The notes: a model not told the origin generated them from the sequence alone. Positions 7,519 to 29,100 are shown, counted from the stretch's first letter. The stretch is DNA of 42,981 nt from an uncultured Bacilli bacterium (GCA_947627225.1 CANQVB010000003.1:1-42981), one strand, 5' to 3'. Numbers and translations are program-made.

Positions 7519-7533
7519 GTAATTCACCTTTCC

Positions 7534-8622: not shown

Positions 8623-8624
8623 GT

Positions 8625-12688: not shown

Positions 12689-13444
12689 GTGCACAAAAAC
12701 ATGGATAAAAAAAAGAATTATGCCATTAAAATAGATCATGTAACAAAAAAATTTAAAGTCTATTATGATAAAGCAAATACTTTAAAAGAGCGCTTGGTAT
12801 TTTGGAAAAACAAAAAAAATATCGAAGAACGAACGGTTTTAGAAAATATAAATCTAGAAATCAAAAAAGGGGAGACAGTTGCTTTAGTTGGAGTTAATGG
12901 AAGTGGAAAAAGTACCCTCTTAAAATTGATGACTAAAATTATCTATCCCACAAAAGGAAAAGTTGAAGCAGTTGGTAAATTAACTTCGTTACTAGAATTA
13001 GGAGCTGGATTCCATGATGATTTCACAGGAAGAGAAAATATCTATTTTAATGCTTCCATTTTTGGTTTAACAAAAGAAGAGATTGATAAAAAAATAGAGG
13101 ATATTATTGCCTTTTCAGAATTAGAAAAATTTATCGATAATCCTATTCGCACATATTCTTCTGGAATGTACATGCGTCTTGCTTTTTCTGTTGCTATCAA
13201 TGTAAATGCTGAGATTCTTTTAATTGATGAAATTCTTGCCGTGGGGGATCAACATTTCCAAGATAAATGTTTTCAAAAATTAAAAGAGTTAAAAGACAGT
13301 GATAAGACAATTGTCATTGTAAGTCATAGTCTTTCTGCTTTAAGAAAAATCTGTACTAGAGCTATCTGGATTCATGAAGGACATATTAGAATGGATGGCG
13401 ACATAAACGAAGTGATAGACAACTATTTGAAAACATGTGAATAA
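12689..13444 (+). CDS. wzt: Polysaccharide ABC exporter ATP-binding subunit (Wzt/RgpD/TagH-like), no C-terminal CBM; alternative start ATG 12701
   Basis: GVNGSGKST Walker A, LLELGAGF, YSSGMYMRLAF signature, LIDEILAVGD Walker B, VSH. Confidence 0.93.
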   Translation: MHKNMDKKKNYAIKIDHVTKKFKVYYDKANTLKERLVFWKNKKNIEERTVLENINLEIKKGETVALVGVNGSGKSTLLKLMTKIIYPTKGKVEAVGKLTSLLELGAGFHDDFTGRENIYFNASIFGLTKEEIDKKIEDIIAFSELEKFIDNPIRTYSSGMYMRLAFSVAINVNAEILLIDEILAVGDQHFQDKCFQKLKELKDSDKTIVIVSHSLSALRKICTRAIWIHEGHIRMDGDINEVIDNYLKTCE

Positions 13445-13459
13445 GAAAAGAGGTAAATT

Positions 13460-14233
13460 ATGCAATTGATTAAGAATTTATATAATTATCGTGAATTATT
13501 AAAAAGCAATATAAAAAAAGAAATACGAGGAAAATATAAAGGCTCTTTTTTAGGAATTCTATGGTCTTTTGTAAATCCTCTTTTAATGGTTGCTGTATAT
13601 GCAATTGTTTTTCCTTATATTATGCGTGTTCAAACTGATAATTATTTGCTTTACTTAATTACAGGTATTATTCCATGGAATTTTTTTACAATGGTGATTA
13701 ATCAAGGTATGATAACAGTACGAATGAATGCAGGCATTATAAAAAAAGTTTATTTTCCAAGAGAAATTTTACCGATTTCAGTAGCAAGTAGTGGGTTGGT
13801 TAACTTTTTTATCAGTTGCCTAATTATTTTATTATTTTGTTTGTTTAGTGGGGCTGGTTTATCGTGGTATTTGGTGTTTGTTCCTTTTTTAGCACTCATT
13901 CAGTATTTTCTTACCTTAGGAATTGTTTTTGCACTTTCAGCAATCAACATTTATATAAAAGATACGGAATACCTTGTTCAGTTCTTTTTAAACTTATTGT
14001 TTTATGCGACACCTATTTTATATCAAGCGACGCTTTTCCCAGAAAAAATTAGATGGCTACTTTATTTAAATCCTATGTCACAAATGGTAGATGCTTATCG
14101 TGCAGTATTTATATATCATCAGTTACCAGAATTTTCTGGGTTATTATACTTAATCGGTATTACAATCATTATTTTCTTTGTTGGACTCTTTATTTTTAGA
14201 AAATTAGAAAAAGGTTTTGCAGAGGAAGTATAG
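13460..14233 (+). CDS. wzm: Polysaccharide ABC exporter permease (Wzm/RgpC-like)
   Basis: KYKGSFLGILWSFVNPL, IKKVYFPREILP, FYATPILY, NPM; 6 TMs. Confidence 0.93.
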   Translation: MQLIKNLYNYRELLKSNIKKEIRGKYKGSFLGILWSFVNPLLMVAVYAIVFPYIMRVQTDNYLLYLITGIIPWNFFTMVINQGMITVRMNAGIIKKVYFPREILPISVASSGLVNFFISCLIILLFCLFSGAGLSWYLVFVPFLALIQYFLTLGIVFALSAINIYIKDTEYLVQFFLNLLFYATPILYQATLFPEKIRWLLYLNPMSQMVDAYRAVFIYHQLPEFSGLLYLIGITIIIFFVGLFIFRKLEKGFAEEV

Positions 14234-14287
14234 GATGACAAACTTAGAACAATAAATATAGTCAAAATAGCAAATCGTGGAGGACTT

Positions 14288-16432
14288 ATGAAACAATGTA
14301 AATTTATAAAAATTGAGGATGCTATCGTCACAGGTGTATTACAACCCGTGTTTGTTATCAAAGGAAGTAGTACTACAGATACTTATGAATTTTTAGTTAA
14401 AGTGGATGATGTTGAAACAGAATATAATAATTTGACACTCTCAGATCGCAAACAATATGCAATTATTGTGAATCTTTTAAAATATTCAAAAAAAATAGAG
14501 GTCTATTGTAGGGAAAATGAGAAACAGAATTGGTTTCTTCTGTACAAAACAAAGACATTTTTAATAAAAAGAGTGCAAACTAGGTTATTTGAAGTTATAA
14601 AAACAGGTTTTAGGAAAATTGGACGCTGTTTTTATGTATTAGGACGAGGAATTCGTTTTTTATGGAAAGAATATCATTTTTTAGTGCCAATCCATTTATG
14701 GGGAAAATATTTCCATGATTTTAAAGAAAGTATATCTCGGGGATCAAATAAGTTTTATAATCCTAATAATTTTTCTGATTATCAACATTGGTTAAAGCTA
14801 CATGACAAAGATAAGAATGAAAAGATGGAGTTGAAATATCAACCCTTGATTTCGATTTTGACACCGGTTTATAATGTAGATGCTTCACTCCTAATGGAAT
14901 GTGTTAATTCAGTTTTAAATCAGAGTTATACTCATTTTGAATTATGTTTAGTTGATGACTGTTCTAACAAGGAAGATACCAAAGAAGCATTACAGCAATG
15001 TGAAGCGTTAGACGCAAGAATTAAGGTTCATTATAGGGAAAAAAATGGTCATATTTCTAGGGCTAGCAATGATGCGTTGAAAATGGCAAATGGAGAGTTT
15101 ATTGCACTTTTAGACAATGATGATGTGTTAGATAGTGATGCTTTGTATGAAATGGTAAAAGTATTGAATCAAGATAAAAAAATTGATTTTATTTATAGCG
15201 ATGAAGATAAACTCGATTTAAATGGGAAACGGTGTGAGCCACATTTTAAACCAGATTTTTCACCGGATACACTACTTAGTTTAAATTATATATGTCATTT
15301 CTCAATGATTCGGAAAAGGATAGTTGATGAAGTAGGCGGTTTTGAAGTCGGTTTAGAGGGTGCCCAAGATTATGATTTGTTCTTAAAAATAGTAGAAAAA
15401 ACGAAGAAGATTGCACATGTACCTAAAATTTTATACCATTGGAGAAAAACGAAAACTTCAACAGCACTCTCTTCTAAAAATAAAGATTATGCAGCTGACA
15501 AAGGGAAAATTGCAATTGAAAATGCATTAAAAAGAAGAAAAATTAAGGCAACAGTAGAAAAAGAAGAAAAAAGTGGATATTATCGAGTTCATTATGAAAT
15601 TAAAAAAGAACCACTTATTTCTATTATAATTCCTACAAGAGACTATGTGGATGTATTAAAAACGTGTGTAGACTCTATCCTAAAAAAAACAACTTATAAA
15701 AATTATGAGATCATTGTAGTAAACAACGATAGCAAAGAAAAAAAGACACAAGAATTTTTTGCAAATTATACTAAAAAATATAAAAATTTTCATATTGTCG
15801 ATTGCATTATGCCATTCAATTATTCAAAAATTAATAATATAGCAGTGTCAAAGGCAAAAGGAGAATATATTGTCCTTCTCAATAATGATACGGAAGTAAT
15901 CAGTGCCGATTGGTTAACGACAATGGTAGGATATGCTATGCAAAAGCATATTGGTGTTGTTGGAACAAAGCTTTTATATTCAGATGAAACGATTCAACAT
16001 GCAGGAGTTATTTTGGGATTAGGTGGTGTTGCTTCTCATGCTTATATTGGTTCTAGCAAACATGACACAGGCATGTTTGGAAGACTTGCAGTTCCATATA
16101 ATTACAGTGCTTGTACAGCAGCATGTATCATGATTCAGAAAAAAAAGTATGAAGAAGTAAATGGTTTGAACGAAAAATTAGAAGTAGCCTACAACGACAT
16201 TGATTTTTGTCTTCGGATTCGAAAAGAAAACTATTATAATGTTTTTTTACCACAAGTTTCCTTAATTCATTATGAATCCAAGTCTAGAGGTTTAGATACA
16301 ACAACAGAAAAATATAAAAGGTTTTTAAAGGAATCTGACTATATGTACAAGCATTGGCAACAGGAACTTCAGAATGATCCATTCTATAATTCAAATTTTA
16401 GTAAAAAGGGTTGGTTTATGCTAGATAAGTGA
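14288..16432 (+). CDS. Two-domain GT2 glycosyltransferase (probable backbone polymerase)
   Basis: Domain 1 ISILTPVYN/DDCS/LDNDD/GAQDYDL/LYHWR; domain 2 ISIIIPTRD/LLNNDTE/IQHAG/NDIDFCLR/HYESKSRG. Confidence 0.9.
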   Translation: MKQCKFIKIEDAIVTGVLQPVFVIKGSSTTDTYEFLVKVDDVETEYNNLTLSDRKQYAIIVNLLKYSKKIEVYCRENEKQNWFLLYKTKTFLIKRVQTRLFEVIKTGFRKIGRCFYVLGRGIRFLWKEYHFLVPIHLWGKYFHDFKESISRGSNKFYNPNNFSDYQHWLKLHDKDKNEKMELKYQPLISILTPVYNVDASLLMECVNSVLNQSYTHFELCLVDDCSNKEDTKEALQQCEALDARIKVHYREKNGHISRASNDALKMANGEFIALLDNDDVLDSDALYEMVKVLNQDKKIDFIYSDEDKLDLNGKRCEPHFKPDFSPDTLLSLNYICHFSMIRKRIVDEVGGFEVGLEGAQDYDLFLKIVEKTKKIAHVPKILYHWRKTKTSTALSSKNKDYAADKGKIAIENALKRRKIKATVEKEEKSGYYRVHYEIKKEPLISIIIPTRDYVDVLKTCVDSILKKTTYKNYEIIVVNNDSKEKKTQEFFANYTKKYKNFHIVDCIMPFNYSKINNIAVSKAKGEYIVLLNNDTEVISADWLTTMVGYAMQKHIGVVGTKLLYSDETIQHAGVILGLGGVASHAYIGSSKHDTGMFGRLAVPYNYSACTAACIMIQKKKYEEVNGLNEKLEVAYNDIDFCLRIRKENYYNVFLPQVSLIHYESKSRGLDTTTEKYKRFLKESDYMYKHWQQELQNDPFYNSNFSKKGWFMLDK

Positions 16433-16497
16433 TTTCAAACAACAAAAGCTATACTTTTTGGCTAAATTTAGATATAATTTAAAAAAAGGAGAAAAGT

Positions 16498-18669
16498 ATG
16501 AAATCAAAAAAACAAACTTGTTATATTTTATTATTGCAGACAGTGGTGGCATATATTTTTACAATTCTTATGCTTCATAACTCTTTTAATAGTACAGTCT
16601 TATTCAAAATTGATATCTTTTTATTTCTTTTAATATGGCTTGGTCTTTTCTTCATCTCAAGTCATTTCATTTTCCCAATAAAAAGAGTGTATCAATTTCT
16701 CTATGAAAAAAGATATCCAATTGCACTCATTTTATTAGCTATTTTAGTTCTTGGTAAATTTAATGGCAGTTCATATGGAATGTACAATAGTTATGTAGAA
16801 CCAAATTATAGTGTTCCTGCATTAACTCCAATTTTTGGAACAAGTAGAGCAATTCGCAGTGATGGATGGCTTGTAAATTCTGCATATGTCTTATCACAAA
16901 TCAAGACGGGATTTCATTATTTCAATCCGCTTATGCGTGGGGTTGCAACAGATGTTTTTGCAACACTTCCAGCACCTGTATTTAACATATTAGGGCTTAC
17001 AAAGCCGTTCGTATTTGGCTATGTCTTTTTAGGAAATGATTATGGAATGGCATTCTATTGGTTTGGCCGAATTATTGCCTTATTCTTAGTTACGTTCGAA
17101 TTATTAATGGTGCTTTCTAAAGGAAAAAAAGTTTCTTCTTTGATAGGAACCATCTTAATTACAGCTTCCCCTCCTGTTTTTTGGTGGTACTCTACGCAGT
17201 TGATTGAAATTTTAGTTGGTGGGGAATTTGCAGTTTTAATGTTTTATCACTTTTTACGAGAAAAAAATTGGAAGAGAAAAGTATTATATTCAATTTTAAT
17301 TGGATGGGGCTTTTTAGTGTATGCATTTGCATTATATCCAGCATGGCAAATCCCATTTGGTTATGTCTTCTTGTTATTGGCATTTTATTTATTGCTTGAT
17401 GCGAAAAAACAAAAACCTATTCGAATAAAAACTTTATGGCCTATATTGCTTACAGTAGTAATGATAGTTGGTTCTGTTGGTTATTTCTTATATTTAAGTG
17501 GATCTACCTATCAACAAATTATGTCTACAGTTTATCCTGGCGCCAGATTTGTACTTGGTGGAACTGGATATGGACCTGTTTCCTCTTATCCACTTGCTAT
17601 TTTTTTCCCTTACTTTGATGCAGGAAATCCATCAGAACTTAGTAGTTTTTATTCTTTTTTTCCACTCGTTTTAATTGTTGCTATTTACTATCTTATTCGG
17701 GAAAGAAAACACTGGAAGGAAAACATATTACTGTTGGGACTTACAGTTCTTACAATCATTTATCTTATATTTGCCGTATTGTCATTCCCATCTTTTCTTG
17801 CTAAAATCACACTTATGTATATGGTTCCGGCTGGAAGATTAGGGATTATTATTTCCTTTTTGTGTATTTTATTGTTTACACTTTTACTGGACAAAAAACT
17901 TATAACAACAAAAAAAGAAAAGATTGGCTTTATAGTTTTATTGGTTTTGTCTAGTCTTTATACAATAAATGAAGCACATACTGTTTTAGGTAATTATGCG
18001 ACACCAAAACGATTACTGATAGGCTTTCTTTTATTAATTATTCCAAGCTTTTATTTTCTATTCCATGATAAAATGAAAGAAAAAAGAAAAACAAACAGGA
18101 TCATGCACGAAACCTCCCTTTTAAAAAGGGGTATTTCAAAAGTATATATTCCTAGAAAGGTAGTTTTACTTTTTCTAGTTACGGCGATTTCTTTTGTAAC
18201 TACGATTTATGTGAATCCGTTGATGAAAGGCTTTTCTGCATTAGATGAAAAACCACTTTCAAAAGAATTAAAGAAATACGGCGATACAAAGGATAAATGG
18301 GTTGCTTTGGATTCTATTGTTGTTGCAAATTATTTAGGAACACAAGGGAAACGTGTTATCAATAGTACAAACATTTATCCTAATTTAGCTATGTGGAAAA
18401 AATTAGATCCGAAAATGAAATATAAAGATATCTATAATCGTTATGCACATGTTAATGTCGAATTAACAAAAGGGAAATTAAACTTTAAATTAACAAGCTC
18501 TGATTTATTTACTGCATATTTAAATCCAAATGATTTATGTAAGTTAGATGTCGATTTTTTAACTTCTTATAGGAATTTAGATGAATATAATCAAGGACAA
18601 ATTCTATTTGATGAAAAATATCACAAAGATAATCTTTATTTATATCAAGTGAATTGTAAAGAAAGTTAG
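16498..18669 (+). CDS. Large polytopic membrane protein, putative GT-C-type extracytoplasmic glycosyltransferase
   Basis: About 15 TM segments, extracytoplasmic loop with RAIRSDGW, LYPAWQIP, TVYPGAR, C-terminal soluble domain with YNRYAH; polysaccharide locus context. Confidence 0.6.
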   Translation: MKSKKQTCYILLLQTVVAYIFTILMLHNSFNSTVLFKIDIFLFLLIWLGLFFISSHFIFPIKRVYQFLYEKRYPIALILLAILVLGKFNGSSYGMYNSYVEPNYSVPALTPIFGTSRAIRSDGWLVNSAYVLSQIKTGFHYFNPLMRGVATDVFATLPAPVFNILGLTKPFVFGYVFLGNDYGMAFYWFGRIIALFLVTFELLMVLSKGKKVSSLIGTILITASPPVFWWYSTQLIEILVGGEFAVLMFYHFLREKNWKRKVLYSILIGWGFLVYAFALYPAWQIPFGYVFLLLAFYLLLDAKKQKPIRIKTLWPILLTVVMIVGSVGYFLYLSGSTYQQIMSTVYPGARFVLGGTGYGPVSSYPLAIFFPYFDAGNPSELSSFYSFFPLVLIVAIYYLIRERKHWKENILLLGLTVLTIIYLIFAVLSFPSFLAKITLMYMVPAGRLGIIISFLCILLFTLLLDKKLITTKKEKIGFIVLLVLSSLYTINEAHTVLGNYATPKRLLIGFLLLIIPSFYFLFHDKMKEKRKTNRIMHETSLLKRGISKVYIPRKVVLLFLVTAISFVTTIYVNPLMKGFSALDEKPLSKELKKYGDTKDKWVALDSIVVANYLGTQGKRVINSTNIYPNLAMWKKLDPKMKYKDIYNRYAHVNVELTKGKLNFKLTSSDLFTAYLNPNDLCKLDVDFLTSYRNLDEYNQGQILFDEKYHKDNLYLYQVNCKES

Positions 18670-18734
18670 TTGCTAAATAATATACTTTTGCTATTGCAAA
18701 TATAGACAAAATTAAAAATGAAAGGTGAAGTATT

Positions 18735-21665
18735 GTGGATAAAATTAAGAATTTATTTTTAAGAGATAGTTATCAAGATTTAAAGAAAAATTATGAAGAA
18801 ATTTTGTTGAAAAAGAAAACGACTTGGGATATTGTTGTAATTACAGCTTCCAATAAGATGCAAGCAGATACTTACAAGACAGAATTACAAAAACGAAAAA
18901 AGGAAGGCTTAATTCCTTCACAAACAGATTTTTATGTAATTCCTGACTTAAGAGGAAATAGGATTGGAAGTGGTGGTTCTACTTTATATGTTCTTGCAAA
19001 ATTACAAAAAAAATATGATTTATCGAAGAAGAAAATTTTAATTGTTCATTCTGGAGGGGATAGTAAGCGAATTCCACAATATTCTTGTTTTGGAAAACTT
19101 TTTGCTCCAATTCCTCGCGAATTTGTTCCGGATAGTTCATCAACTTTGTTTGATGAAATCATGATTCAGATGGCAGACATCCCCAATCGCATGGACGAAG
19201 GTATCTTTGTCATGTGTGGGGATGGATTAGTTCTTTTTAATCCATTACAAATTGACTTGCAATATAAAAAGGCAGTTGCCATTTCTATAAAAGTGCCCAA
19301 AGAAATGGGCTGTAATCATGGTGTCTTTGTTTCTGATTCTGAGAATACGATTACAGAATTTCTTCATAAAAAACCTCTTTCTATTCTAGAACAAAAGGCG
19401 GTTCGCAATAATACTGTTGACTTAGATACAGGAATGGTATACCTTCACTCTGAAATCGTTATCAAATTATTATCATTAATTCAAACCCAAAAAACTTTTT
19501 CTCAGTTTATTTCTAGTAAAGTAAGTCTTAATTTTTATGGGGATTTCTTATATCCTTTAGCTAAGAACGCAACCTTAAAAGATTATTTGCAAGAACAAGG
19601 TGAAAAAGAAAAATCTGTGCAGCTTGAAGAATGCAGAAAAAAAATTTGGGAGGTACTTTCTGGATATGCATTACAAATTGTAAAACTAGTTCCTGCTTTG
19701 TATCTTCATTTTGGAACAACAGAAGAAGTTTTAAATATTATGACACAAGATTTAGAAGAATATTATTATCTTGATTGGAAAAGTGAAGTTTCTTCTTACA
19801 TGTCTCAAAATTATCCAATTACAACAATTAACAGTTGGATTCAAGATACATCATTTGCTAAAAACATCTATATTGAAAATAGTATTGTTGAAAATGCAAC
19901 CATTCATTCTAATACAATTTTATCCAACACAACAATTAGAGGGAAAGAATTGCCAAATAATGTGGTACTTTCAACGGTTTTATTGAAAGGTGGCCAATAT
20001 GTTACAAGAATTTATGATATTTCTTGTAATCCAAAAGAACCACTCGCAATCAATACTGTATTTAAAAATGCTACCAATAAAAAATTCTTTCAGTCATTTT
20101 CTGAAACAAGTATTTGGGATGCTTCTTTATATCCGGTAAAGTCTACACTGGAAGAAAGCGTAGAGGCAGCACTTTCTCTTTATAGAATCGTACATAATAT
20201 GGCAACCAGCGAAGAGGAAAAAAGCTATTACGATTCAACTAGAATTAGCATGTGCGATAGTTTTAATCAAGCCAATACAAAAGAAATGAGTATGCAATTA
20301 GAGAATTTGAAAGAGAATATTCTTTTGAAAAAAATAACAACGGTACTTGAAAAAATGGGGCCTTTACAACCTGTTTATGATATTCTTGTGTCATCTTCTA
20401 AACAAAAGAAAATCTTGCAAAAATTAACAGATGCTTTAAAAGATAACAATCATAGTTTCAATATGAGAGTTTACTATTTACTTTCCATGTTGGATCCGAA
20501 AAAACAGGAAGAATATCTAGAGAAGGTTTTTCAAGAAGTAAAACAAAGTGTTGCCAAACCACATGAGAAGGCCTCTCCTAAATTCGAAAAAGATTTCATT
20601 GAATTAAAAAGCCCTGTACGTATTAACCTTGGTGGAGCTTGGAATGATGCACCTCCTTATTGTATTGAAAGGGGAAGTTGTGTTTTAAATGCTGCTGTTT
20701 TATTAAATCATTGTTATCCTATTTCTGTGTGTATAAAAAAATTAAAAGAGCGAAAAATTGTCTTTGAATGCATTGATTATAATGATAAAACTGAAATGAA
20801 AACATTGGGTGAAATTTTAGATTGTAGTAATCCAAATGATTCCTATGCGCTTTTAAAATGTGCTTGTGTAATTAGTGGTTTAGTTAGTGAAAAAGAAACT
20901 TTGCAAGATATATTTACTAAAATTGGTGGCGGAATTCAAATTACAACAAATACTGAAATGATACCCCGAGGAAGTGGTCTTGGGACAAGTAGTATTTTAG
21001 CAGGCACTGTTTTAAAGGCACTATATCAATTTATGGGATATGAAATTGATGACAGCACAATTTTTCACGAAGTTTTATGTTTGGAACAGCTTATGAGTAC
21101 AGGTGGTGGTTGGCAGGATCAAGTTGGTGGACTTGTAAAAGGATTAAAAATAACAAGAACACAGCCAGGTAGTTATCAAAAATTTCAAATTCAAAAGATT
21201 TCTTTACCAAAGAAAATTAAAGAAGAATTAAACGAAAGATTGCTGTTAATCAATACAGCACAAAGACGTCTTGCTCGTAATATTTTGCGTGAAGTTGTAA
21301 AAAAATATATAAAAGGAGATCAAGAATTTTTACAACTTTTAGCGGATGTACAAGTTATTGCACAGGATATGGTAAATGCTCTTGAAAATGGAGATTTTAA
21401 GCAATTTGGAAAGCTATTGGATGAACATTTGGAATATATCAAAAAATTAGATCAAAATTCTACCAACACATGTATTGATTTTATCTTTGAAAGCATCTCT
21501 GATTTAATTGATGGAAAAAGTGTATTAGGCGCTGGGGGTGGAGGCTTTTTAATCGTTTTATTGAAAAAAGGCGTCACTAAAGAGAAATTTGATCAAAGCA
21601 TTATGGAAGTGTTTCAGGATACAGGCGTTATGAGTTTCCAAGTTGAAGTAGAGGAGGAAGTATGA
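18735..21665 (+). CDS. fkp: Bifunctional L-fucokinase / GDP-L-fucose pyrophosphorylase (Fkp-like)
   Basis: N-terminal RIGSGGSTL, HSGGDSKRIPQYS..GKLF, HGVF, FLHK, HFGTT; C-terminal GHMP kinase PVRINLGG, PRGSGLGTSS, GGGWQDQ, GAGGGG. Confidence 0.88.
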   Translation: MDKIKNLFLRDSYQDLKKNYEEILLKKKTTWDIVVITASNKMQADTYKTELQKRKKEGLIPSQTDFYVIPDLRGNRIGSGGSTLYVLAKLQKKYDLSKKKILIVHSGGDSKRIPQYSCFGKLFAPIPREFVPDSSSTLFDEIMIQMADIPNRMDEGIFVMCGDGLVLFNPLQIDLQYKKAVAISIKVPKEMGCNHGVFVSDSENTITEFLHKKPLSILEQKAVRNNTVDLDTGMVYLHSEIVIKLLSLIQTQKTFSQFISSKVSLNFYGDFLYPLAKNATLKDYLQEQGEKEKSVQLEECRKKIWEVLSGYALQIVKLVPALYLHFGTTEEVLNIMTQDLEEYYYLDWKSEVSSYMSQNYPITTINSWIQDTSFAKNIYIENSIVENATIHSNTILSNTTIRGKELPNNVVLSTVLLKGGQYVTRIYDISCNPKEPLAINTVFKNATNKKFFQSFSETSIWDASLYPVKSTLEESVEAALSLYRIVHNMATSEEEKSYYDSTRISMCDSFNQANTKEMSMQLENLKENILLKKITTVLEKMGPLQPVYDILVSSSKQKKILQKLTDALKDNNHSFNMRVYYLLSMLDPKKQEEYLEKVFQEVKQSVAKPHEKASPKFEKDFIELKSPVRINLGGAWNDAPPYCIERGSCVLNAAVLLNHCYPISVCIKKLKERKIVFECIDYNDKTEMKTLGEILDCSNPNDSYALLKCACVISGLVSEKETLQDIFTKIGGGIQITTNTEMIPRGSGLGTSSILAGTVLKALYQFMGYEIDDSTIFHEVLCLEQLMSTGGGWQDQVGGLVKGLKITRTQPGSYQKFQIQKISLPKKIKEELNERLLLINTAQRRLARNILREVVKKYIKGDQEFLQLLADVQVIAQDMVNALENGDFKQFGKLLDEHLEYIKKLDQNSTNTCIDFIFESISDLIDGKSVLGAGGGGFLIVLLKKGVTKEKFDQSIMEVFQDTGVMSFQVEVEEEV

Positions 21666-22414
21666 AAATTTCAGTAGTAACCGTTTGTTATAATTCAGAA
21701 AAAACGATAAAAGATACTTTGGAATCTGTCTTAAAACAAGATTATAAATCGTATGAGCACATTATTATTGACGGAAAAAGTAGTGATAAAACATTAGAGA
21801 TTGTAAAATCTTATGAAAAAAAGTATCAGGGTAGATTAAAAATTGTTAGCGAAAAGGATAAGGGACTTTATGATGCTATGAATAAAGGAATTGAACTAGC
21901 CACAGGGGATGTTATTGGACTTTTAAATTCAGATGATGAATTGGCAGATATCACTGTTTTGAAAACGATTGCGGGTGCCTTTTCCAAAGAAAACTGTGAT
22001 GCAATTTATGGAGATTTAGAGTTTCGTGATGAAACAATGCAAAAAGTAACACGTATTTGGAAAAGCAAAACGGGAAGTTATAAGTGGGGGTGGCACCCAC
22101 CACACCCAACACTCTATGTGAAGAAAGAAGTTTATAAAAAATTAGGGTTATTTAATTTAAAATATCCTATTTGTGCAGATTATGATTTTATGATTCGTCT
22201 GATGAAGAGCAATATTCAACTATTTTATATAGAAAAAGTTTTAATTCATATGCGAAGAGGTGGACGTTCGACAGATGGAATAAAGGGCTATTTTAATAAT
22301 TTTAAAGAAAGCTATCGAATGTTAAAGGATAACGAGATTCCTTTTGCATTCTTTGTAAATTTGAAAAGAACATTTAAAACGTTTAAACAGGCAATTCAAG
22401 CTAAATTTAATTGA
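21662..22414 (+). CDS. GT2 glycosyltransferase, WcaE/WfgS-like (candidate fucosyltransferase)
   Basis: ISVVTVCYN, IDGKSSD, SEKDKGLYDAMNKG, LNSDD, PPHPT, ADYDF; ATGA-coupled to fkp. Confidence 0.8.
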   Translation: MKISVVTVCYNSEKTIKDTLESVLKQDYKSYEHIIIDGKSSDKTLEIVKSYEKKYQGRLKIVSEKDKGLYDAMNKGIELATGDVIGLLNSDDELADITVLKTIAGAFSKENCDAIYGDLEFRDETMQKVTRIWKSKTGSYKWGWHPPHPTLYVKKEVYKKLGLFNLKYPICADYDFMIRLMKSNIQLFYIEKVLIHMRRGGRSTDGIKGYFNNFKESYRMLKDNEIPFAFFVNLKRTFKTFKQAIQAKFN

Positions 22415-22445
22415 GTTTTAATCCAAGAAAAGAGGTATAGTAGTT

Positions 22446-23177
22446 ATGAAAAAAGACAAAGTATTATTAGTTATTCCTGCTTATAACGAGGAAGAAAATA
22501 TTGGAAAAGTTTTAGAGGAAATTAAAAAAGATATACAATATGCAGATGTTCTTGTAATCAATGATTGTAGCAAAGATCGTACACGAGAAATTGTAGACGA
22601 ACACCATGTAAATTGCATTAACAATATTTTTAATATGAAGTATGCAATGGCTATTCAAACAGGAATTAAGTATGCTTTTGAACATGATTATGATTATGTC
22701 ATTCAATTTGATGCTGACGGACAACATATCGCCAAAGAAGCAGAAAAATTATATAAGGTTGCAAAATCTGAGCAGTATGACATTGTAATAGGTTCTCGTT
22801 ATTTGGAGGACACAGGTTATAAATGTCCATTATTTAGAAGGATTGGTACCAAAATATTTGAAATTTTAATCAAATTATTCTGTCGAAAAAGAATAGCGGA
22901 TCCAACGTCTGGTTTTCAGTGCTTAAATAAAAGAGTAATTAAAAAATATGCTCAAATGGGAAATTATCCTGAGTTCCCTGATGCTAATTTAATTATTGAA
23001 ATGTTAAGAGGCGGTTATACAATAAAAGAAGTGCCAGTTAAAATGCGGAATAGAGAAACAGGAGAAAGTATGCATGGAGGAATAATAAAGCCAATCAAAT
23101 ATATGATTACTATGTTTTATACGATTGTGTTTATTGTAATTTCAACTCCAAAAGTTAAGGGTGATAAAAATGAATAG
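22446..23177 (+). CDS. DPM-synthase-like GT2 (GacI/WpsA-like polyprenyl-phosphate glycosyltransferase)
   Basis: IPAYNEE, INDCSKD, QFDADGQH, IGSRY, DPTSGF, EVPVKM..R..GES; followed by a DUF2304-like gene. Confidence 0.85.
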   Translation: MKKDKVLLVIPAYNEEENIGKVLEEIKKDIQYADVLVINDCSKDRTREIVDEHHVNCINNIFNMKYAMAIQTGIKYAFEHDYDYVIQFDADGQHIAKEAEKLYKVAKSEQYDIVIGSRYLEDTGYKCPLFRRIGTKIFEILIKLFCRKRIADPTSGFQCLNKRVIKKYAQMGNYPEFPDANLIIEMLRGGYTIKEVPVKMRNRETGESMHGGIIKPIKYMITMFYTIVFIVISTPKVKGDKNE

Positions 23178-23511
23178 AATATATTTTATAATAATTGCAC
23201 TACTGTGTATGATATATATTGTGAATGATATTAGAAAGAAAAGGTTTTCCATCAAAGAAAGTTTTTGGTGGGTAATGGCAACACTTGTTATATTATTTTT
23301 GGCAATATTTCCTTATAGTATTAACTGGATAGCAAAACAAATTGGAGTAGAATATCCACCTTCTTTATTATTTGTTTTCTGTATTTTATTCCTAATTTTT
23401 ATCAACTTTAAAAATAGTAAAAGAATCAATGAAAATCAAATGAAAATAATAGAATTATCTCAACAATTAGCTTTATTAAAAGAAGAAGCAAAAAAAATAC
23501 ATAAAAAATAA
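23170..23511 (+). CDS. DUF2304-like small membrane protein (GacJ/WpsB-like activator)
   Basis: 3 TMs, IRKKRF..KES..W, AIFP, IGVEYPPS, C-terminal coiled coil ELSQQLAL; ATG 23170. Confidence 0.8.
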   Translation: MNRIYFIIIALLCMIYIVNDIRKKRFSIKESFWWVMATLVILFLAIFPYSINWIAKQIGVEYPPSLLFVFCILFLIFINFKNSKRINENQMKIIELSQQLALLKEEAKKIHKK

Positions 23512-23569
23512 TAGCATATATTATGCGTAATATTTGAAAATAACACAAGAAATACAAGGATGTGAAAAA

Positions 23570-23917
23570 ATGAAATATTTATTAACAATTATATACATTC
23601 TCTTGACAACTGGGGGACTTTTCTGCTTAAAAGCAGGAGGAAATACCTTATCATTAACATTAAAAGATGGAATTAACTTCAGGATTGGTTTTGTTACTAC
23701 GTTTGGTTTTCTTCTTTATATTGGGAGTTTTCTTCTTTGGCAAAAATTATTAGCAACCTATGATTTAAGTTATATTGTACCGCTTACAACTGGAATTGTA
23801 CAAGTCGTTGTTTTGCTAGTAAGTTATTTCTTTTTTAAAGAATCCATTAGCCTTGTAAATCTAATTGGAATTATTTTTGTAATAATAGGCGTGATCTTTA
23901 TTTCTATAAAAAAATGA
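23570..23917 (+). CDS. Small 4-TM EamA/SMR-like protein (ArnE/F-type lipid-linked sugar flippase candidate)
   Basis: 115 aa, four TMs, LY..SF.LW..LL...DLSYIVP, FFKE.IS...IG...IIG pattern; ATG 23570. Confidence 0.7.
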   Translation: MKYLLTIIYILLTTGGLFCLKAGGNTLSLTLKDGINFRIGFVTTFGFLLYIGSFLLWQKLLATYDLSYIVPLTTGIVQVVVLLVSYFFFKESISLVNLIGIIFVIIGVIFISIKK

Positions 23918-26135: not shown

Positions 26136-29100
26136 ATGCAGAGAAAAAGATTGCTCTTATTTGGAATTTTATTGTTTGCTTTTGCTTTTACTCCTGATGT
26201 ATTTGCTTTTTCATCTAGTAATTATCGAAATAAAAGTTTATGTGGAGTCTTTGAAGTCGCAGGGTTTCATAGTGATGGGGTCATTGATCCAGTGAGTTGT
26301 CATGGAAGTTATGATGCCGCCAAAGCTTGGATGAGAAATAATGGCGCAGATGACCTTGCAATTCTTACTAAAGTGAATGGCGTGACTGAAATTATTGATG
26401 CAAACGTTGCGCTTCTTGATTTGACAATACCGCCTGATATGACATATTTTTATACCAATCCTGAACTTTCAGGTTACGCATATACGTATATGGATACAGG
26501 TTCTTTATATGGAGGTGTCGATGGGGCTTTACTGGATGCATCATATTCTTCTTCAAAAGGAACTTGGACTGCGAAAGTTAGAACGGGAAATTGTACAGCT
26601 TGGATTGAAAAAAGAATGTATGAAATTGTTCCAATTACTTGGGTTCGATCAAGTAGTAGTTATACCGTAACAAGTGAATCAATTCGACATAATTATGTTG
26701 AAAAAATTCAAAATACCTATAATGGAAGTAGGGGAAGTACCATTGGTCCAAAACCTTCTATGCTTTCTGCTGGAACGTATTATAGTTATGATGGTCACTA
26801 TTTCTATCGCGATTTAACAACCATGCTAAAAGACTACAGAAATGGAACGTATCAACATGCCGTGAATGCGAACAATGTCTATTACAACTACTATATGTAT
26901 CTATCTAATCATACAAGGACCAGTTACTCTAGTGTAAACATCGATGAATACATTCGAAATTCCTTAGGTGTTGTGGGGGATGCTAACGGAACAACAGCTT
27001 ATGGTGGTAGATCTCGACTTTATGGAAAAGGAACTTTCTTCTACTATGCCCAAGAAAAGTATGGGGTGAATGCAGTTCTTGCCCTTAGTTTAAGTCGGAA
27101 TGAAACGGGGAATGGAACAAGTAATTTAGCGGTAAATAAAAACAATGGCTTTGGTTTAAATGCAGTTGATAGTAGTCCAACAGAATCTGCCAATTGGTAT
27201 GCTTCTTTCGCAGAAAGTATATTGGGTTACGCTTCTAAGTGGATTACTTATGGATATGCGCATCCAAGAGATTGGCGTTATTTCGGACCACAGTTTGGGG
27301 ATAAATGGAGTGGTATGAACGTCAAATATGCATCCGATACATTCTGGAGTGAAAAGATGGCTGCGAACTACTATGCACTTGATAAAGCAAAAGGCCTTCA
27401 AGATTACGACTACTATCAATTGGGTGTTGCGACAAGACAAGTCAATGCCATGAGTGATGCATCCAACAGTTCTAAATTTATCTATTCATACCCTGAAGCA
27501 GAAGATGCTGTTGTTATCGTTGGAGAGAAAAAGGGAGAAAGCGTAAATGGCAATAACCTCTGGTATCAAGTAGTGAGTGACTTAAACATCGATTCTAACT
27601 ACAACGAGATTACATCTGGAAATTATAACTGGAATGGAACCGTTTATGTGCCTGCCGCATACATCAAGAAAATCAATCAAGGAAAACGAGGTTATGTATC
27701 TCCTAACAGTGTGACAGAGTACCAAGATAAATATTATACCTATGATTTATATGTTGAAAATACTGTTTTAAAACCAAAAGTTGCGAAAACAGTCAAAGAT
27801 ACAAATTATTATTATGATCCAGCACTCACAAGTCAAAAGAGTCAAAACGTCGTAAAAGACCGGTATGTTATGGTTTATACAACGGCTTATAATAAAGCAG
27901 GAACTCCAGTATCTTATCTTATTACTTCAGATTACTTCTATGACCAAAAAGAATGGGTCAAGGCAGATACCATTCAATTTGTAGATAGTGATTATGGAAA
28001 AGTAACCATTTCTACTGGCTCAAATGACTATACATGGGTTAACTCTGTTCCCCAAGAAACAGCTAATACCGTCATTGGTGGACAGTTTAACAACTCTTAT
28101 GTCCCAATCTTAGGACAAACCACTGCAAGTGATGGTAGAGTTTGGTACAAAGTTCCCGTTGACCTCAATGGAACAGAGCAAGAATTTGGATGGACCTTAC
28201 AAGCATCACCTGGTGTTGCTGTTACAAAGCTCCATGCCAAAGCAGACAATCATGCCCCTGTAATTCGTGCTCAAAATAGAAGCATTGTGCAAGGTAGTAA
28301 ATGGGATCCTAAAGCAGGTGTCAGTGCGACAGATCAGGAAGATGGCAACTTAACTGCCAAGCTTGTCGTTTTAAAAGATGCTGTTCAAATTGATGTACCA
28401 GGAACTTATGAAGTCATCTATTCTGTTACAGATAAAAGTAATTTAAAGACAACGAAAACCATTCAAGTGACAGTAACAGAAAACAAAAAACCAGTGCTTG
28501 TTGCGGAAGATATGAAGATAACCATTGGAAAAGAATTCCATGAAAAAGAAGGAGTAACAGCAAATGATGCCGAAGATGGAGACCTGACTTCAAAAATCGT
28601 CGTGACTGAAAACAAGGTCAATACCAAAGCATTAGGCAGCTATCCAGTTACTTATTCTGTTACAGATAGCTACAACCAGACGACAGAAAAGACCATTACC
28701 GTTACGGTTATCGAAGACCAAAAGCCAGAAATTACAACGACAACTACAACGGCATACTTAAATCGTGATTTTGAACCGCTTAAAATCGTAAAAGCTACTG
28801 ACTTTGAAGATGGAGATCTTACCAAAGCAGTTGAAGTGGTTAAAAATGATGTAGATACCACAAAGATAGGTCCCTATGAAGTTACATACCGGGTTCGTGA
28901 TTCTTATGGACACGAAGTAACCAAAACCTTTACGATTACGGTACAAGAAAAACAATTGGAAGAAAAACCTGGTCTATTCTACTTTGATTCTCTAAAAGAA
29001 GAAGCAGGAAAACTTGTTATCAAAGGATACCATGCGATTCAAGGAATCGATCATAAAAAGGATACGGCTATTTCTTACAAGCTCGTCTTCCAAAATATAA

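What the first reader, a model, noticed from the sequence alone, without database searches (positions are those of the whole stretch)
16498..23917. Fucose salvage (Fkp) wired into a Gram-positive lipid-carrier wall-glycosylation module
Seen: fkp is ATGA-coupled to a WcaE-like GT2, followed by GacI-like, GacJ-like and EamA/SMR-like genes and preceded by a GT-C-like gene. No gmd/fcl is in the window. Established: Bacteroides Fkp converts scavenged L-fucose to GDP-fucose for surface glycans; WcaE is a colanic-acid fucosyltransferase; GacI/GacJ make Und-P-GlcNAc for extracytoplasmic side-chain transfer by a GT-C. Inference: this organism builds a fucosylated HexNAc side chain on undecaprenyl phosphate from environmental or host fucose, flips it, and grafts it on the ABC-exported backbone. 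That would give fucose-dependent, possibly host-mimicking or phage-receptor-switching, surface decoration in a Bacilli-like cell.
Basis: partly seen in the sequence, partly recalled or inferred. Interest (0 to 1): 0.75.

Follow-up and report, generated by a model that had tools for sequence, protein, structure and literature searches.

The report
Fucose-salvage genes inserted in wall-sugar operon
A small-genome gut bacterium has picked up a two-gene unit, a fucose-recycling enzyme plus a matching sugar transferase, inside an otherwise conserved operon that decorates its cell-wall polymer, so its surface fucose probably depends on free fucose from its surroundings.

Summary
Window 16498-23917 encodes a DUF7657/DUF7654 membrane protein, a 976-aa Fkp-type fucokinase/GDP-fucose pyrophosphorylase, a 250-aa GT2 (ATGA overlap), a GacI-like GT2, a GacJ-like DUF2304 protein and a 4-helix EamA/SMR-like protein, downstream of TagH/TagG.

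The 1.11-Mb genome (91.8% complete) has no gmd, no Fcl-like gene, no GH29 or GH95-type fucosidase domain, and no FucP, FucI or FucU.

New here: in at least 9 related Bacilli loci the operon runs TagH-TagG-double GT2-DUF7657-GacI-GacJ-SMR, with DUF7657 abutting GacI. Fkp and the GT2 sit exactly in that junction. Full-length Fkp occurs in 2 of 401 genomes of the order.

The GT2's best solved relative is the GDP-fucose transferase WrtF. In its 22-row Firmicutes clade, 20 rows have Fkp nearby or gmd in the genome.

Most likely (about 0.5): GDP-fucose made only by salvage is added to the lipid-linked sugar made by GacI/GacJ, as WpsC does in Lactococcus, then flipped and grafted. Rival (about 0.3): fucose goes onto the backbone.

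The GT-C fold of DUF7657, the sugar identities and any host mimicry are untested. This is a new variant of known systems. The scan has noted GacI/GacJ modules 271 times, none with Fkp.

The parts
12689..13444 (+). TagH-like ABC exporter ATPase of the backbone polymer
   Evidence: ABC_tran in Pfam; NCBIfam teichoic-acid export ATPase 246.8 bits, below its cut-off. 74-83% identical in the related Bacilli loci.
13460..14233 (+). TagG-like ABC-2 permease
   Evidence: ABC2_membrane. 60-81% identical in related loci.
14288..16432 (+). 714-aa protein with two GT2 domains, the likely backbone glycosyltransferase
   Evidence: Two Glycos_transf_2 stretches. 52-61% identical and in the same position in L223, L225, L228 and L239.
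16498..18669 (+). DUF7657/DUF7654 polytopic membrane protein, the candidate outer-face transferase (GT-C-like by context only)
   Evidence: Pfam hits. A GacI-like gene lies within 7 kb in 27 of 43 homologous loci. In 9 loci GacI follows the DUF7657 match (tblastn) or ORF within about 105 bases. One homologue, P0157, is fused to a GtrA domain. D122 is invariant in 47 of 47. The neighbouring Glu is present in 45 of 47, but the window has Gly. The fold was not tested.
18735..21665 (+). Fkp-type bifunctional L-fucokinase / GDP-L-fucose pyrophosphorylase (inserted gene 1)
   Evidence: It is the only PF07959 match in the genome. Found in 1 of 41 relatives. Found full-length in 2 of 401 genomes of the order.
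21662..22414 (+). 250-aa GT2, WrtF/WcaE-like, the presumed GDP-fucose-dependent fucosyltransferase (inserted gene 2, ATGA-coupled)
22446..23177 (+). GacI/WpsA/PpgS-like polyprenyl-phosphate sugar synthase without membrane helices
   Evidence: GT2 with a D-A-D-G-Q motif, read in the translation. The DxDxQ hallmark comes from PMC10821137. Orthologues at 69-72% identity in G015 and G012.
23161..23511 (+). GacJ/WpsB-like DUF2304 small membrane partner; overlaps the GacI-like gene by 17 bases
   Evidence: DUF2304 94.8 bits.
23534..23917 (+). 4-helix EamA/SMR-like protein, the presumed flippase of the lipid-linked sugar. The real start is probably the ATG at 23570 (115 aa).
   Evidence: Homologues of 115-116 aa, 50-79% identical, follow GacJ in related loci. 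All 3 homologues found in 40 relatives lie within about 3 kb of a GacI-like gene.

Best explanation
The region is a four-component side-chain glycosylation module of an ABC-exported wall glycopolymer. The four components are the DUF7657/DUF7654 membrane transferase, a GacI-like lipid-sugar synthase, its GacJ-like partner and a small EamA/SMR-like flippase. A two-gene fucosylation unit, Fkp plus a GT2, has been inserted into it.

Proposed steps:
1. Free L-fucose from outside the cell is phosphorylated and converted to GDP-L-fucose by Fkp. This is the only GDP-fucose source, and as far as I can see the only GDP-sugar source, in this genome.
2. GacI with GacJ loads a sugar onto undecaprenyl phosphate at the inner face of the membrane. 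The sugar is probably a HexNAc, by analogy only.
3. The translationally coupled GT2 adds fucose from GDP-fucose to that lipid-linked sugar, as WpsC extends GlcNAc-P-C55 in Lactococcus.
4. The small 4-helix protein flips the lipid-linked glycan.
5. The DUF7657/DUF7654 protein transfers it to the polymer exported by TagGH.

What is shown: gene content, order and coupling; conserved residues; the lack of a de novo route; the insertion into a conserved junction; and the cross-genome linkage of the GT2 clade to GDP-fucose supply genes and to GacI/GacJ.

What is inferred: every enzymatic step, the acceptor of the GT2, the flippase and transferase roles, and the source of fucose.

My odds: about 0.75 that Fkp plus GT2 is a salvage-fed fucosylation add-on to this wall-glycan locus, and about 0.5 for the whole chain as written, with the lipid-linked sugar as acceptor.
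For: **Fkp.**
- It has two domains in one chain.
- It matches BfFKP 5yys at 226 bits, E 5.5e-66.
- BfFKP residues named in PMC11982464 (section 8) are kept: D31, G38, S39, H73, G75, G76, S78, R80, K89 and D136, and for the kinase R592, W599, D601, E751, G759, Q761 and D762.
- In 14 of 80 loci of Fkp homologues from species genomes, gmd and fcl lie beside Fkp. This fits a fucose role for this Firmicutes branch.

**No other route in the own genome.**
- No gmd.
- The best intact Epimerase-family ORF scores 26 bits over model positions 1-119. Two Fcl-type proteins found beside gmd in other genomes score 199-200 bits.
- There is one weak NTP_transferase hit and no ManC-like gene.

**Insertion.**
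- 9 loci (L223, L225, L226, L227, L228, L231, L238, L239, L240) have DUF7657 followed directly by GacI. In those I read in full (L223, L225, L228, L239) DUF2304 and SMR follow, and TagH, TagG and the double GT2 lie upstream at 52-83% identity.
- 0 of 43 DUF7657 loci hold Fkp.

**Rarity.**
- Fkp: 1 of 41 relatives. Full-length in 2 of 401 genomes of the order, G000 and G204.
- DUF7657: 1 of 41.

**GT2.**
- The best solved relative is 9omh at 115.7 bits; the next scores 71. I identify 9omh as WrtF because the residues named in PMC12595478 fit with an offset of one.
- Kept: D66 (binds guanine in WrtF), N-S-D-D at 89-92, H148 (= H142) and D173 (= D167).
- Of the 80 best homologous loci, 14 have gmd within 10 kb (12 of them also fcl) and 2 have Fkp. 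In 9 the gmd hit starts within about 350 bases after the GT2.
- In the tree the window's GT2 lies in a starred clade of 22 Firmicutes rows. 16 have Fkp nearby. 4 lack Fkp but have gmd over the cut-off in the genome, 4 of 4 tested.

**Link of the GT2 to GacI/GacJ.**
- 14 of 80 Fkp loci have both a GT2 orthologue (39-59%) and GacI (39-45%); 13 are in the order Fkp, a gene of about 1.2 kb, GT2, GacI. In the 3 such loci annotated, that gene is a GT4, GacJ follows GacI, and two of them carry a GT-C-like gene next (DUF6056, or a weak GT87 match at E 5.7e-6).
- G204: GacI, GacJ, Fkp, GT2 (58%, overlapping), then a Wzx-like gene and further GTs.
- G015: GacI (69%), GacJ, Wzx-like, GT2 (48%).

**Precedent.** WpsA/WpsB make GlcNAc-P-C55 and WpsC extends it (PMC10821137, passages).
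Against: - No Wzx-type flippase lies in the cluster. The flippase candidate is a small 4-helix protein of the kind that accompanies plain GacI/GacJ monosaccharide modules in relatives. Flipping and transfer of a disaccharide by these parts is unproven.
- GT2 orthologues in G015 and L123 sit directly beside TagG/TagH, which fits action on the backbone.
- Three small-genome Bacilli have close GT2 orthologues but neither Fkp nor gmd was found: G015 (48%), G544/L123 (56%) and G010 (64% over a truncated gene).
- The highly conserved His-Asn pair of GT2 fucosyltransferases is His-Pro here, and WrtF F191 aligns with Met.
- The WcaE and Fkp NCBIfam scores are far below the equivalog cut-offs.
- Fkp has Ala where BfFKP T602 and 14 of 14 aligned relatives have Thr; that residue bonds the fucose 3-OH.
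- The DUF7657 protein has Gly where 45 of 47 relatives have Glu, next to the invariant Asp.
- No fucose transporter, mutarotase or fucosidase was found.
- The genome is 91.8% complete, so absences are not proof.
- Part of the Fkp-GT2 linkage count comes from loci that were fetched through Fkp and is biased. The unbiased figure is 16 of 80.
Confidence: 0.5

Rival explanations
1. Fkp and the GT2 fucosylate the main chain. The GT2 adds fucose in the cytoplasm to the undecaprenyl-diphosphate-linked polymer before TagGH exports it. GacI/GacJ, the SMR-like protein and DUF7657 independently add a single sugar outside the cell. The adjacency then reflects only a hot spot for gene gain in a variable locus.
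For: - The characterised GT2 fucosyltransferases WrtF and WbdO work on O-polysaccharide synthesis (PMC12595478, passages).
- GT2 orthologues abut TagG/TagH in G015 and TagH in L123.
- The flippase is the small type found in plain GacI/GacJ modules of relatives such as G005 and L223.
- There is no Wzx in the cluster. The two MOP-family genes of the genome lie elsewhere, and the one I examined sits beside a two-component system.
Against: - GT2 orthologues are linked to GacI/GacJ in 14 of 80 Fkp loci that mostly show no TagGH (3 of 80 have a TagH hit). They are also linked in G204 and G015, with a Wzx-like gene between or beside them.
- In the cassettes annotated, GacI/GacJ is the only initiating enzyme for the soluble GTs within the roughly 19-kb loci read.
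Confidence: 0.3
2. The sugar is not L-fucose. The Fkp-like enzyme activates a look-alike such as D-arabinose or L-galactose, or the GT2 uses another donor, so the decoration carries no fucose.
For: - FKP enzymes also phosphorylate D-arabinose (PMC12732313, section 8).
- The Thr-to-Ala change at the 3-OH contact is unique to the window.
- The NCBIfam equivalog cut-off is not reached.
- No fucose permease, mutarotase or fucosidase was found.
- GT2 orthologues occur in three genomes without any GDP-fucose source.
- His-Pro stands in place of the His-Asn pair.
Against: - All other fucose- and GTP-binding residues are kept, including W636, which matches the Trp that stacks on C4-C6 of fucose.
- Relatives of this Fkp branch lie beside gmd and fcl in 14 of 80 loci.
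- 20 of the 22 rows of the GT2 clade have a GDP-fucose supply gene nearby or in the genome.
Confidence: 0.1
3. The GacI-like enzyme itself uses GDP-fucose and makes undecaprenyl-phosphate-fucose, which is flipped and transferred as a single sugar. The 250-aa GT2 has another task.
For: - Fkp, GT2, GacI and GacJ travel together in many loci.
- Enzymes of this class can use GDP-sugars: the DPMS comparison in PMC10821137.
- The window's GacI lies on a long branch of its own.
Against: Orthologues at 69-72% identity occur in G015 and G012, where neither Fkp nor a gmd over the cut-off was found. The GacI-like gene's donor therefore cannot depend on GDP-fucose there.
Confidence: 0.05
4. The insert or the module is decaying and no longer works.
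For: - There are unique substitutions at two otherwise conserved positions: Fkp A639 and DUF7657 G123.
- A dTDP-glucose dehydratase remnant in the same cluster shows that gene decay occurs here.
- No uptake system was found.
Against: - All six reading frames are intact and tightly spaced or overlapping.
- The other catalytic residues are kept.
Confidence: 0.05

Closest known systems
Lactococcus WpsA/WpsB/WpsC/WpsG/WpsJ pathway for the polysaccharide pellicle (PMC10821137; passages seen)
   Same: - A GacI/GacJ-type pair starts a glycan on undecaprenyl monophosphate.
- A soluble cytoplasmic GT extends it.
- The product is flipped and grafted onto a separately made, ABC-exported backbone.
   Different: - Here there is only one extending GT.
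- The presumed donor is GDP-fucose from salvage.
- The flippase candidate is a 115-aa 4-helix EamA/SMR-like protein, not a Wzx.
- The transferase candidate is DUF7657/DUF7654, not a recognised GT-C family.
- No polymerase genes are present.
Streptococcus pyogenes GacI/GacJ/GacK/GacL, which adds the GlcNAc side chain of the group A carbohydrate (as described in PMC10821137; Rush et al. 2017 recalled)
   Same: - A membrane-less GT2 with a DxDxQ-type motif, plus a DUF2304 partner.
- A flippase and an outer-face transferase.
- The module sits next to an ABC-exported polymer locus.
   Different: - GacK is a Wzx-type flippase.
- The group A side chain is a single GlcNAc.
- There is no sugar-salvage gene and no second cytoplasmic GT.
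- The window's GacI lies in a separate clade, and its donor is unknown.
Bacteroides Fkp (BfFKP; PMC11982464 section 8; PMC8068183 passage)
   Same: - Same two-domain architecture.
- The catalytic and substrate-binding residues are kept.
- It would feed scavenged fucose into surface glycans.
   Different: - Similarity to BfFKP is 226 bits, and only 38 bits in the pyrophosphorylase part.
- It belongs to a Firmicutes branch.
- Bacteroides also has the de novo route and a fucose permease (recalled). This genome has neither.
- One fucose contact, Thr602, is Ala here.
GT2 fucosyltransferases WrtF, WcaE, WbdO, Bf4306 and GtfD (PMC12595478; passages)
   Same: - WrtF is the best solved relative.
- Kept: the Asp that reads guanine, the catalytic-base Asp, the His, and an NXDD-type donor motif.
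- Homologues often lie directly beside gmd-fcl.
   Different: - The Asn of the conserved His-Asn pair is Pro.
- WrtF F191 aligns with Met.
- The WcaE model scores 82.6 against a cut-off of 369.
- The known enzymes act on lipid-diphosphate-linked repeat units or polymers, not on a lipid-monophosphate sugar.
Mycobacterial PpgS/Rv3632, and ArnE/ArnF (named by the NCBIfam hits; their biology is recalled)
   Same: - PpgS with its DUF2304-type partner makes polyprenyl-P-GalNAc for an outer-face GT-C.
- ArnE/ArnF are small DMT-type flippases of a lipid-monophosphate sugar.
   Different: The hits are weak: 90.5 bits against a cut-off of 370 for PpgS, and E 1e-4 for ArnF. Neither system has a fucose step.

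Membership tests
FKP (bifunctional L-fucokinase / GDP-L-fucose pyrophosphorylase) | N-terminal fucose-pyrophosphorylase domain and C-terminal GHMP kinase in one chain | tested here: met
   PF07959 265.4 bits at residues 96-469, and GHMP_kinases_N at 723-797. The match to BfFKP covers both parts.
FKP (bifunctional L-fucokinase / GDP-L-fucose pyrophosphorylase) | Catalytic and substrate-binding residues of BfFKP (PMC11982464 section 8) | tested here: met
   20 of the 21 positions checked are kept or conservatively placed. The exception is T602, which is A639 here and Thr in 14 of 14 relatives. The Lys at the K187 position is K213, and the clade-invariant Lys is K212.
FKP (bifunctional L-fucokinase / GDP-L-fucose pyrophosphorylase) | Score over NCBIfam's equivalog cut-off (PRK13412) | tested here: not met
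   448.6 bits against a cut-off of 721.
FKP (bifunctional L-fucokinase / GDP-L-fucose pyrophosphorylase) | Makes GDP-L-fucose from L-fucose, ATP and GTP | not testable with these tools
   This needs an enzyme assay.
GacI/GacJ (WpsA/WpsB, PpgS/Rv3632) lipid-sugar synthase pair | GT2 without membrane helices carrying the DxDxQ motif of polyisoprenyl-phosphate glycosyltransferases | tested here: met
   D-A-D-G-Q read in the 243-aa GT2. The motif is defined in PMC10821137. The absence of membrane helices in the GT2 was judged by eye from the translation only.
GacI/GacJ (WpsA/WpsB, PpgS/Rv3632) lipid-sugar synthase pair | DUF2304 small membrane protein encoded directly beside it | tested here: met
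   DUF2304 94.8 bits; the gene overlaps the GT2 gene by 17 bases.
GacI/GacJ (WpsA/WpsB, PpgS/Rv3632) lipid-sugar synthase pair | Donor is UDP-GlcNAc and the product is GlcNAc-P-undecaprenol | not testable with these tools
   The window's GacI forms its own starred clade with G015 and G012, apart from the other 43 rows.
GT2 fucosyltransferases (WrtF/WcaE/WbdO/Bf4306/GtfD) | Conserved active-site residues Asp66, His142, Asn143, Asp167 and Phe191 (F/Y), as listed in PMC12595478 | tested here: inconclusive
   By the HMMER alignment to 9omh, D66, H148 and D173 are kept. N143 aligns with P149. F191 aligns with M197; the residue before it is Tyr in 3 of 6 family members and His in the window. I could not see the paper's own alignment (SI Figs S7 and S16).
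GT2 fucosyltransferases (WrtF/WcaE/WbdO/Bf4306/GtfD) | Score over NCBIfam's WcaE equivalog cut-off | tested here: not met
   82.6 bits against a cut-off of 369.2. The protein is therefore not a WcaE orthologue.
GT2 fucosyltransferases (WrtF/WcaE/WbdO/Bf4306/GtfD) | Genomic association with a GDP-fucose supply | tested here: met
   16 of 80 unbiased homologous loci have gmd or Fkp within 10 kb. In the 22-row clade, 20 rows have a source nearby or in the genome. The 2 exceptions are G015 and G544.
GT-C fold outer-face glycosyltransferases (GacL, WpsJ, ArnT, YfhO) | GT-C fold | not tested
GT-C fold outer-face glycosyltransferases (GacL, WpsJ, ArnT, YfhO) | Detectable sequence or profile similarity to a known GT-C family | tested here: not met
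   - PDB profile search: only BioY at E 0.31.
- hhalign against one YfhO: probability 0.6%.
- hhalign against five DUF2142 proteins: probability 4.7%.
- Pfam scan of 47 members: no GT-C family recurs.
- The language-model neighbours DUF6044 and YfhO are leads only.
GT-C fold outer-face glycosyltransferases (GacL, WpsJ, ArnT, YfhO) | Polytopic membrane protein with a conserved acidic residue in an early loop, encoded with a lipid-sugar synthase | tested here: inconclusive
   - A hydropathy scan gives 16 partly overlapping hydrophobic segments up to residue 577.
- D122 is invariant in 47 of 47, but the window lacks the neighbouring Glu.
- GacI lies within 7 kb in 27 of 43 loci.
- One homologue is fused to GtrA.
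Wps-type dual-chain pathway | Wzx-type flippase for the lipid-linked oligosaccharide in the cluster | tested here: not met
   No Polysacc_synt gene is in the window. The two in the genome lie on other contigs. The one I examined is beside a two-component system.

The most novel reading that the evidence does not exclude
Gut Firmicutes carry an undescribed, mobile class of decoration cassettes in which a fucose-salvage enzyme, one or two fucosyltransferase-like GTs and a GacI/GacJ pair build a fucosylated glycan on undecaprenyl monophosphate for grafting onto wall polymers.

In reduced-genome Bacilli such as this one, the cassette is cut down to Fkp plus one GT2. It is dropped into a module whose outer-face transferase is a new family (DUF7657/DUF7654). 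It is fed only by fucose that other community members or the host set free. Surface fucosylation would then be a community-dependent trait.
Probability: 0.35. Interest if true: 0.65.

Novelty: new variant of a known kind. Interest (0 to 1): 0.48.

Why it matters
Fucose salvage into surface glycans is known from Bacteroides, where it matters for gut colonisation (passages in PMC8068183 and PMC12355684).

I found no paper that places Fkp in a Gram-positive wall-glycan module:
- Two searches turned up none among the papers listed.
- The FKP phylogeny paper's main text has no occurrence of Bacillota, Firmicutes, Clostridi..., Gram-positive or Lachnospir....
- No paper in the library holds the word DUF7657.

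If the reading is right, three things follow:
1. A 1.1-Mb, uncultured gut bacterium with no way to make or release fucose displays it anyway, at the mercy of its neighbours or host.
2. The two-gene Fkp-GT2 unit is a portable way to add fucose to GacI/GacJ-type side chains, and larger versions are common in Lachnospiraceae.
3. DUF7657/DUF7654 becomes a candidate new family of outer-face glycosyltransferases.

All three can be tested with standard assays, and with alkynyl-fucose labelling of gut communities.

Tried and rejected
The origin of the 51-54% relatives stays unknown.
- **Locus searches for close Fkp relatives.** The single-protein search found none. The metagenome scan with the close clade's alignment returned only relatives of 35-45% identity; of its 80 loci, 1 has both GT2 and GacI.
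- **Sequence and profile searches for a GT-C link** of DUF7657 found nothing.
- **Expression.** No RNA holder was listed, so I say nothing about expression.
- **Laid contigs are short and fragmentary.**
  - Stretches without cover in X5 and X6 are not used.
  - One X6 contig joins 18387 to 22458, skipping the insert. Only 27 letters lie on one side and the threshold was 85% likeness, so it may come from a relative with the uninterrupted junction. I do not count it.
  - The two Fkp pieces listed for X5 and X6 carry 34 of 272 and 43 of 305 other letters.
- **GT11 fucosyltransferase search** of the genome found nothing, but the control rang nowhere, so it is uninformative.
- **Phase variation or mobile-element scars around the insert.**
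  - No convincing flanking direct or inverted repeats and no long simple tracts.
  - Promoter-like sites: 71 against 63.2 ± 8.7 in shuffles. Terminator-like sites: 7 against 3.9 ± 1.7.
- **Und-P-fucose synthase idea** for the GacI-like gene: rejected because of close orthologues in genomes without a GDP-fucose source.
- **Wzx-type flippase.** One MOP-family gene on contig 15 lies beside a two-component system, not in a glycan cluster. The other, on contig 57, was not annotated further.

Full report
**What is there**

The + strand of window 12689-23917 carries one tightly packed gene row:
- TagH-like and TagG-like ABC exporter genes.
- A 714-aa protein with two GT2 domains.
- A 723-aa DUF7657/DUF7654 membrane protein.
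- A 976-aa protein with a fucose-pyrophosphorylase domain and a GHMP kinase domain.
- A 250-aa GT2.
- A 243-aa GT2.
- A 116-aa DUF2304 protein.
- A 127-aa EamA/SMR-like protein.

The stop codon of the Fkp-like gene overlaps the start of the 250-aa GT2 as ATGA. The GacI-like and GacJ-like genes overlap by 17 bases.

Upstream and on the other strand lie further wall-glycan genes: a TagF-like gene, a cytidylyltransferase, FdtA/aminotransferase/acetyltransferase genes, acyltransferases and a DUF6056 protein.

The window is contig 3 of a 1.11-Mb assembly that is 91.8% complete. The nearest named relatives of its GlmS are uncultured Erysipelotrichaceae and Bacilli MAGs at 53-56% identity. Public runs that hold the stretch are labelled rabbit gut metagenome.

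**The Fkp-like protein**

It matches the solved Bacteroides fragilis FKP at 226 bits. The kinase part is strong (186 bits) and the pyrophosphorylase part weak (38 bits).

I read the residues that Lin et al. name for GTP, fucose and catalysis (PMC11982464, abstract and section 8). I then checked them in the HMMER alignment and in an alignment with 14 relatives.
- All are kept except Thr602. It is Ala639 in the window and Thr in 14 of 14 relatives.
- The score for NCBIfam's equivalog model is 448.6, against a cut-off of 721.

So the protein belongs to the FKP architecture but to a distant branch. That branch is large:
- 3181 proteins at E ≤ 0.001 among the 7996 candidates scored. The few that carry names are from Lachnospiraceae, Clostridia and Eubacteriales.
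- In 14 of the best 80 of those loci, gmd and fcl lie beside the Fkp gene. This fits GDP-fucose metabolism.

The window's copy sits in a starred clade with five unnamed metagenome proteins at 52-53% identity. It is apart from the copy in G204, another genus of the same family.

**No other way to GDP-fucose, and no visible way to get fucose**

In the own genome I found:
- No gmd.
- No Fcl-like gene. The best intact Epimerase-family ORF scores 26 bits over model positions 1-119. Two Fcl-type proteins found beside gmd in other genomes score 199-200 bits.
- No GH29 domain and no GH95-type N-domain.
- No FucP, FucI or FucU.
- Only one weak NTP_transferase hit, which is not ManC-like.

The assembly is incomplete, so these are 'not found', not 'absent'. 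For scale, gmd was found in 8 of 150 genomes of the class and in 0 of 13 of the family.

**The insert**

This is the main new result. Homologues of the DUF7657 protein occur in 43 loci of species genomes. A GacI-like gene lies within 7 kb in 27 of them, an SMR-like gene in 13, and Fkp in none.

In 9 loci the DUF7657 match (tblastn) or ORF is followed within about 105 bases by GacI: L223, L225, L226, L227, L228 (titled Clostridium sp. CAG:451), L231, L238, L239 and L240.

In the four loci that I read in full, the row is TagH (75-83%), TagG (60-81%), double GT2 (52-61%), DUF7657 (37-51%), GacI (39-42%), a DUF2304 protein, and SMR (50-79%).

The window has the same row, with Fkp and the 250-aa GT2 placed exactly between DUF7657 and GacI.

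How rare the parts are:
- Fkp was found in 1 of 41 relatives.
- Full-length Fkp was found in 2 of 401 genomes of the order, G000 and G204. Two further hits are partial matches of 28-31% to the kinase part.
- The DUF7657 gene was found in 1 of 41 relatives.

The window's GacI is not the type that sits at this position in those loci. In a 47-row tree it forms a starred clade with G015 and G012 (69-72% identical). That clade is apart from the DUF7657/SMR-linked clade, which includes three genomes of the same genus, and apart from the Lachnospiraceae clade. The whole stretch between DUF7657 and SMR may therefore have been exchanged, not only Fkp and the GT2.

**The 250-aa GT2**

Its best NCBIfam hit is WcaE, far below the cut-off.

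A profile of six orthologues finds one solved relative well above all others: 9omh and its sister entries, at 115.7 bits against 71 for the next. The table calls the chain only 'Glycosyltransferase'. I identify it as WrtF because Phe13, Asp66, Gly68, Ile69, G89ADD92, His142, Asn143, Cys165, Asp167 and Phe191 of Forrester et al. (PMC12595478, passages) all fit the chain with an offset of one.

In the window protein:
- Kept: the Asp that reads guanine (D66), an N-S-D-D motif at 89-92, the His (H148) and the catalytic-base Asp (D173).
- Not kept: the Asn of the 'highly conserved His-Asn pair' is Pro, and Phe191 aligns with Met.

Genomic context speaks for a GDP-fucose donor.
- Of the 80 best of at least 596 homologous loci, 14 have gmd within 10 kb (12 of them with fcl) and 2 have Fkp. 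In 9 loci the gmd hit begins within about 350 bases after the GT2, and in 6 within about 20.
- In a 90-row tree the window's GT2 lies in a starred clade of 22 Firmicutes rows. 16 of these have Fkp nearby, though most of those loci were fetched through Fkp, so that count is biased.
- I searched the genomes of four Lachnospiraceae members of the clade that lack a nearby Fkp. 0 of 4 have Fkp and 4 of 4 have gmd over the cut-off.
- Two members, G015 and G544 (the genome of L123), have neither. So does G010, whose orthologue (64% over 160 residues) is cut by a contig end.
- G204 and G545 (the genome of L029) have Fkp but no gmd, like the window.

**Which acceptor?**

The GT2 clade is repeatedly linked to GacI/GacJ.
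- 14 of 80 Fkp loci hold both a GT2 orthologue and GacI. 13 of them are in the order Fkp, one gene of about 1.2 kb, GT2, GacI.
- In the three such loci that I annotated, the extra gene is a GT4 and GacJ follows GacI. Two of them (L023, L044) then carry a GT-C-like gene, a weak GT87 match (E 5.7e-6) or DUF6056.
- G204 has GacI, GacJ, Fkp, an overlapping GT2 (58%), then a Wzx-like gene and four more GTs.
- G015 has GacI, GacJ, a Wzx-like gene and the GT2.

This is the layout of the lactococcal pellicle pathway. There WpsA/WpsB make GlcNAc-P-C55 and WpsC was shown to extend it (PMC10821137, passages).

Three things count against it:
- The window has no Wzx. It has the small 4-helix protein that goes with plain monosaccharide modules.
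- GT2 orthologues abut TagG/TagH in G015 and L123.
- The known GT2 fucosyltransferases act on lipid-diphosphate-linked chains.

I therefore give the backbone rival 0.3.

The idea that GacI itself uses GDP-fucose fails. Its 69-72% orthologues occur in genomes in which neither Fkp nor a gmd over the cut-off was found.

**The DUF7657/DUF7654 protein**

Its role as outer-face transferase rests on four points:
- Its conserved position in the operon.
- One homologue fused to a GtrA domain.
- Many hydrophobic segments followed by a C-terminal soluble domain.
- An invariant Asp in an R-S-D-E-W motif.

The window's copy alone among 47 has Gly for the Glu of that motif; the codon is GGA.

No sequence or profile link to known GT-C families was found. 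A language-model search placed DUF6044 and YfhO clusters nearest after its own family, which is a lead only.

**Comparison and novelty**

The pieces are known kinds: an FKP, a GacI/GacJ pair, a WrtF/WcaE-like GT2 and a TagGH exporter. This scan has noted GacI/GacJ modules 271 times. None was found with Fkp, either by words or by sequence.

What is new is the combination and its history:
- A salvage-only GDP-fucose source, coupled to a fucosyltransferase-like GT2.
- Its insertion into a conserved four-gene side-chain module of a reduced-genome gut Bacilli.
- A larger sister cassette in Lachnospiraceae.
- An uncharacterised family in the transferase position.

I found no paper on this (searches; term search).

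There is no evidence for host mimicry, phase variation or phage-receptor switching.

I rate it a new variant of a known kind, of moderate interest.

Noticed in passing
window 1325-1895: This is a remnant of a dTDP-glucose 4,6-dehydratase (RmlB). The ORF at 1494-1895 matches model positions 206-320 of 321, and an upstream piece lies in another frame with a stop. The FdtA-like, aminotransferase and acetyltransferase genes at 6985-9095 would need its product, yet no intact Epimerase-family dehydratase was found in the genome.
   Followed up: partly
window 16864-16866: The DUF7657 protein has Gly (GGA) where 45 of 47 family members have Glu, next to the invariant Asp of an R-S-D-E-W motif. It could be a real change of the active site or an assembly error.
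   Followed up: partly
window 20649-20651 (Fkp residue 639): The window has Ala where B. fragilis FKP Thr602 contacts the fucose 3-OH and where all 14 aligned relatives have Thr.
   Followed up: partly
window 1929-6982, minus strand: This stretch holds an acetolactate-synthase-like TPP enzyme, a short-chain dehydrogenase, a glycerol-3-phosphate-cytidylyltransferase-like domain fused to a GFO/IDH/MocA-type oxidoreductase, and a TagF-like transferase. It looks like a route to an unusual CDP-activated substituent of the polymer.
   Followed up: no
L023:6926-7720, L044:7091-7876, L028:2008-2793 (all minus strand): An ORF of 261-264 aa without any Pfam family lies divergently just upstream of Fkp in all three annotated cassette loci from Lachnospiraceae or Bulleidia. 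Whether the three are homologous was not checked. It could be a regulator or an uptake component of the cassette.
   Followed up: no
L110:8113-10470 (G012): The closest GacI relative (70-72%) is the C-terminal part of a 785-aa protein with a long N-terminal extension of about 550 residues. It is followed by a GacJ-like gene at 46% identity. An earlier scan note (e1-4422164) describes a comparable fusion in a Clostridia genome.
   Followed up: no
L029:4133-7971: In the 1.49-Mb genome with the closest complete Fkp-GT2 pair, four heptose-pathway-like genes lie between GacI/GacJ and Fkp. They are a SIS isomerase, a GT9 heptosyltransferase-like gene, an HldE-like kinase/cytidylyltransferase and a HAD phosphatase. 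This is unusual for a Gram-positive-type locus.
   Followed up: no
window 37349-39216: A pair of genes encodes an AAA_21 (AbiEii-like ATPase) protein and an RloB-like protein. It is a candidate phage-defence pair.
   Followed up: no
window 26136-29888: A 1250-aa surface protein carries a glucosaminidase domain and three Ig-like domains. It lies directly after glmS.
   Followed up: no
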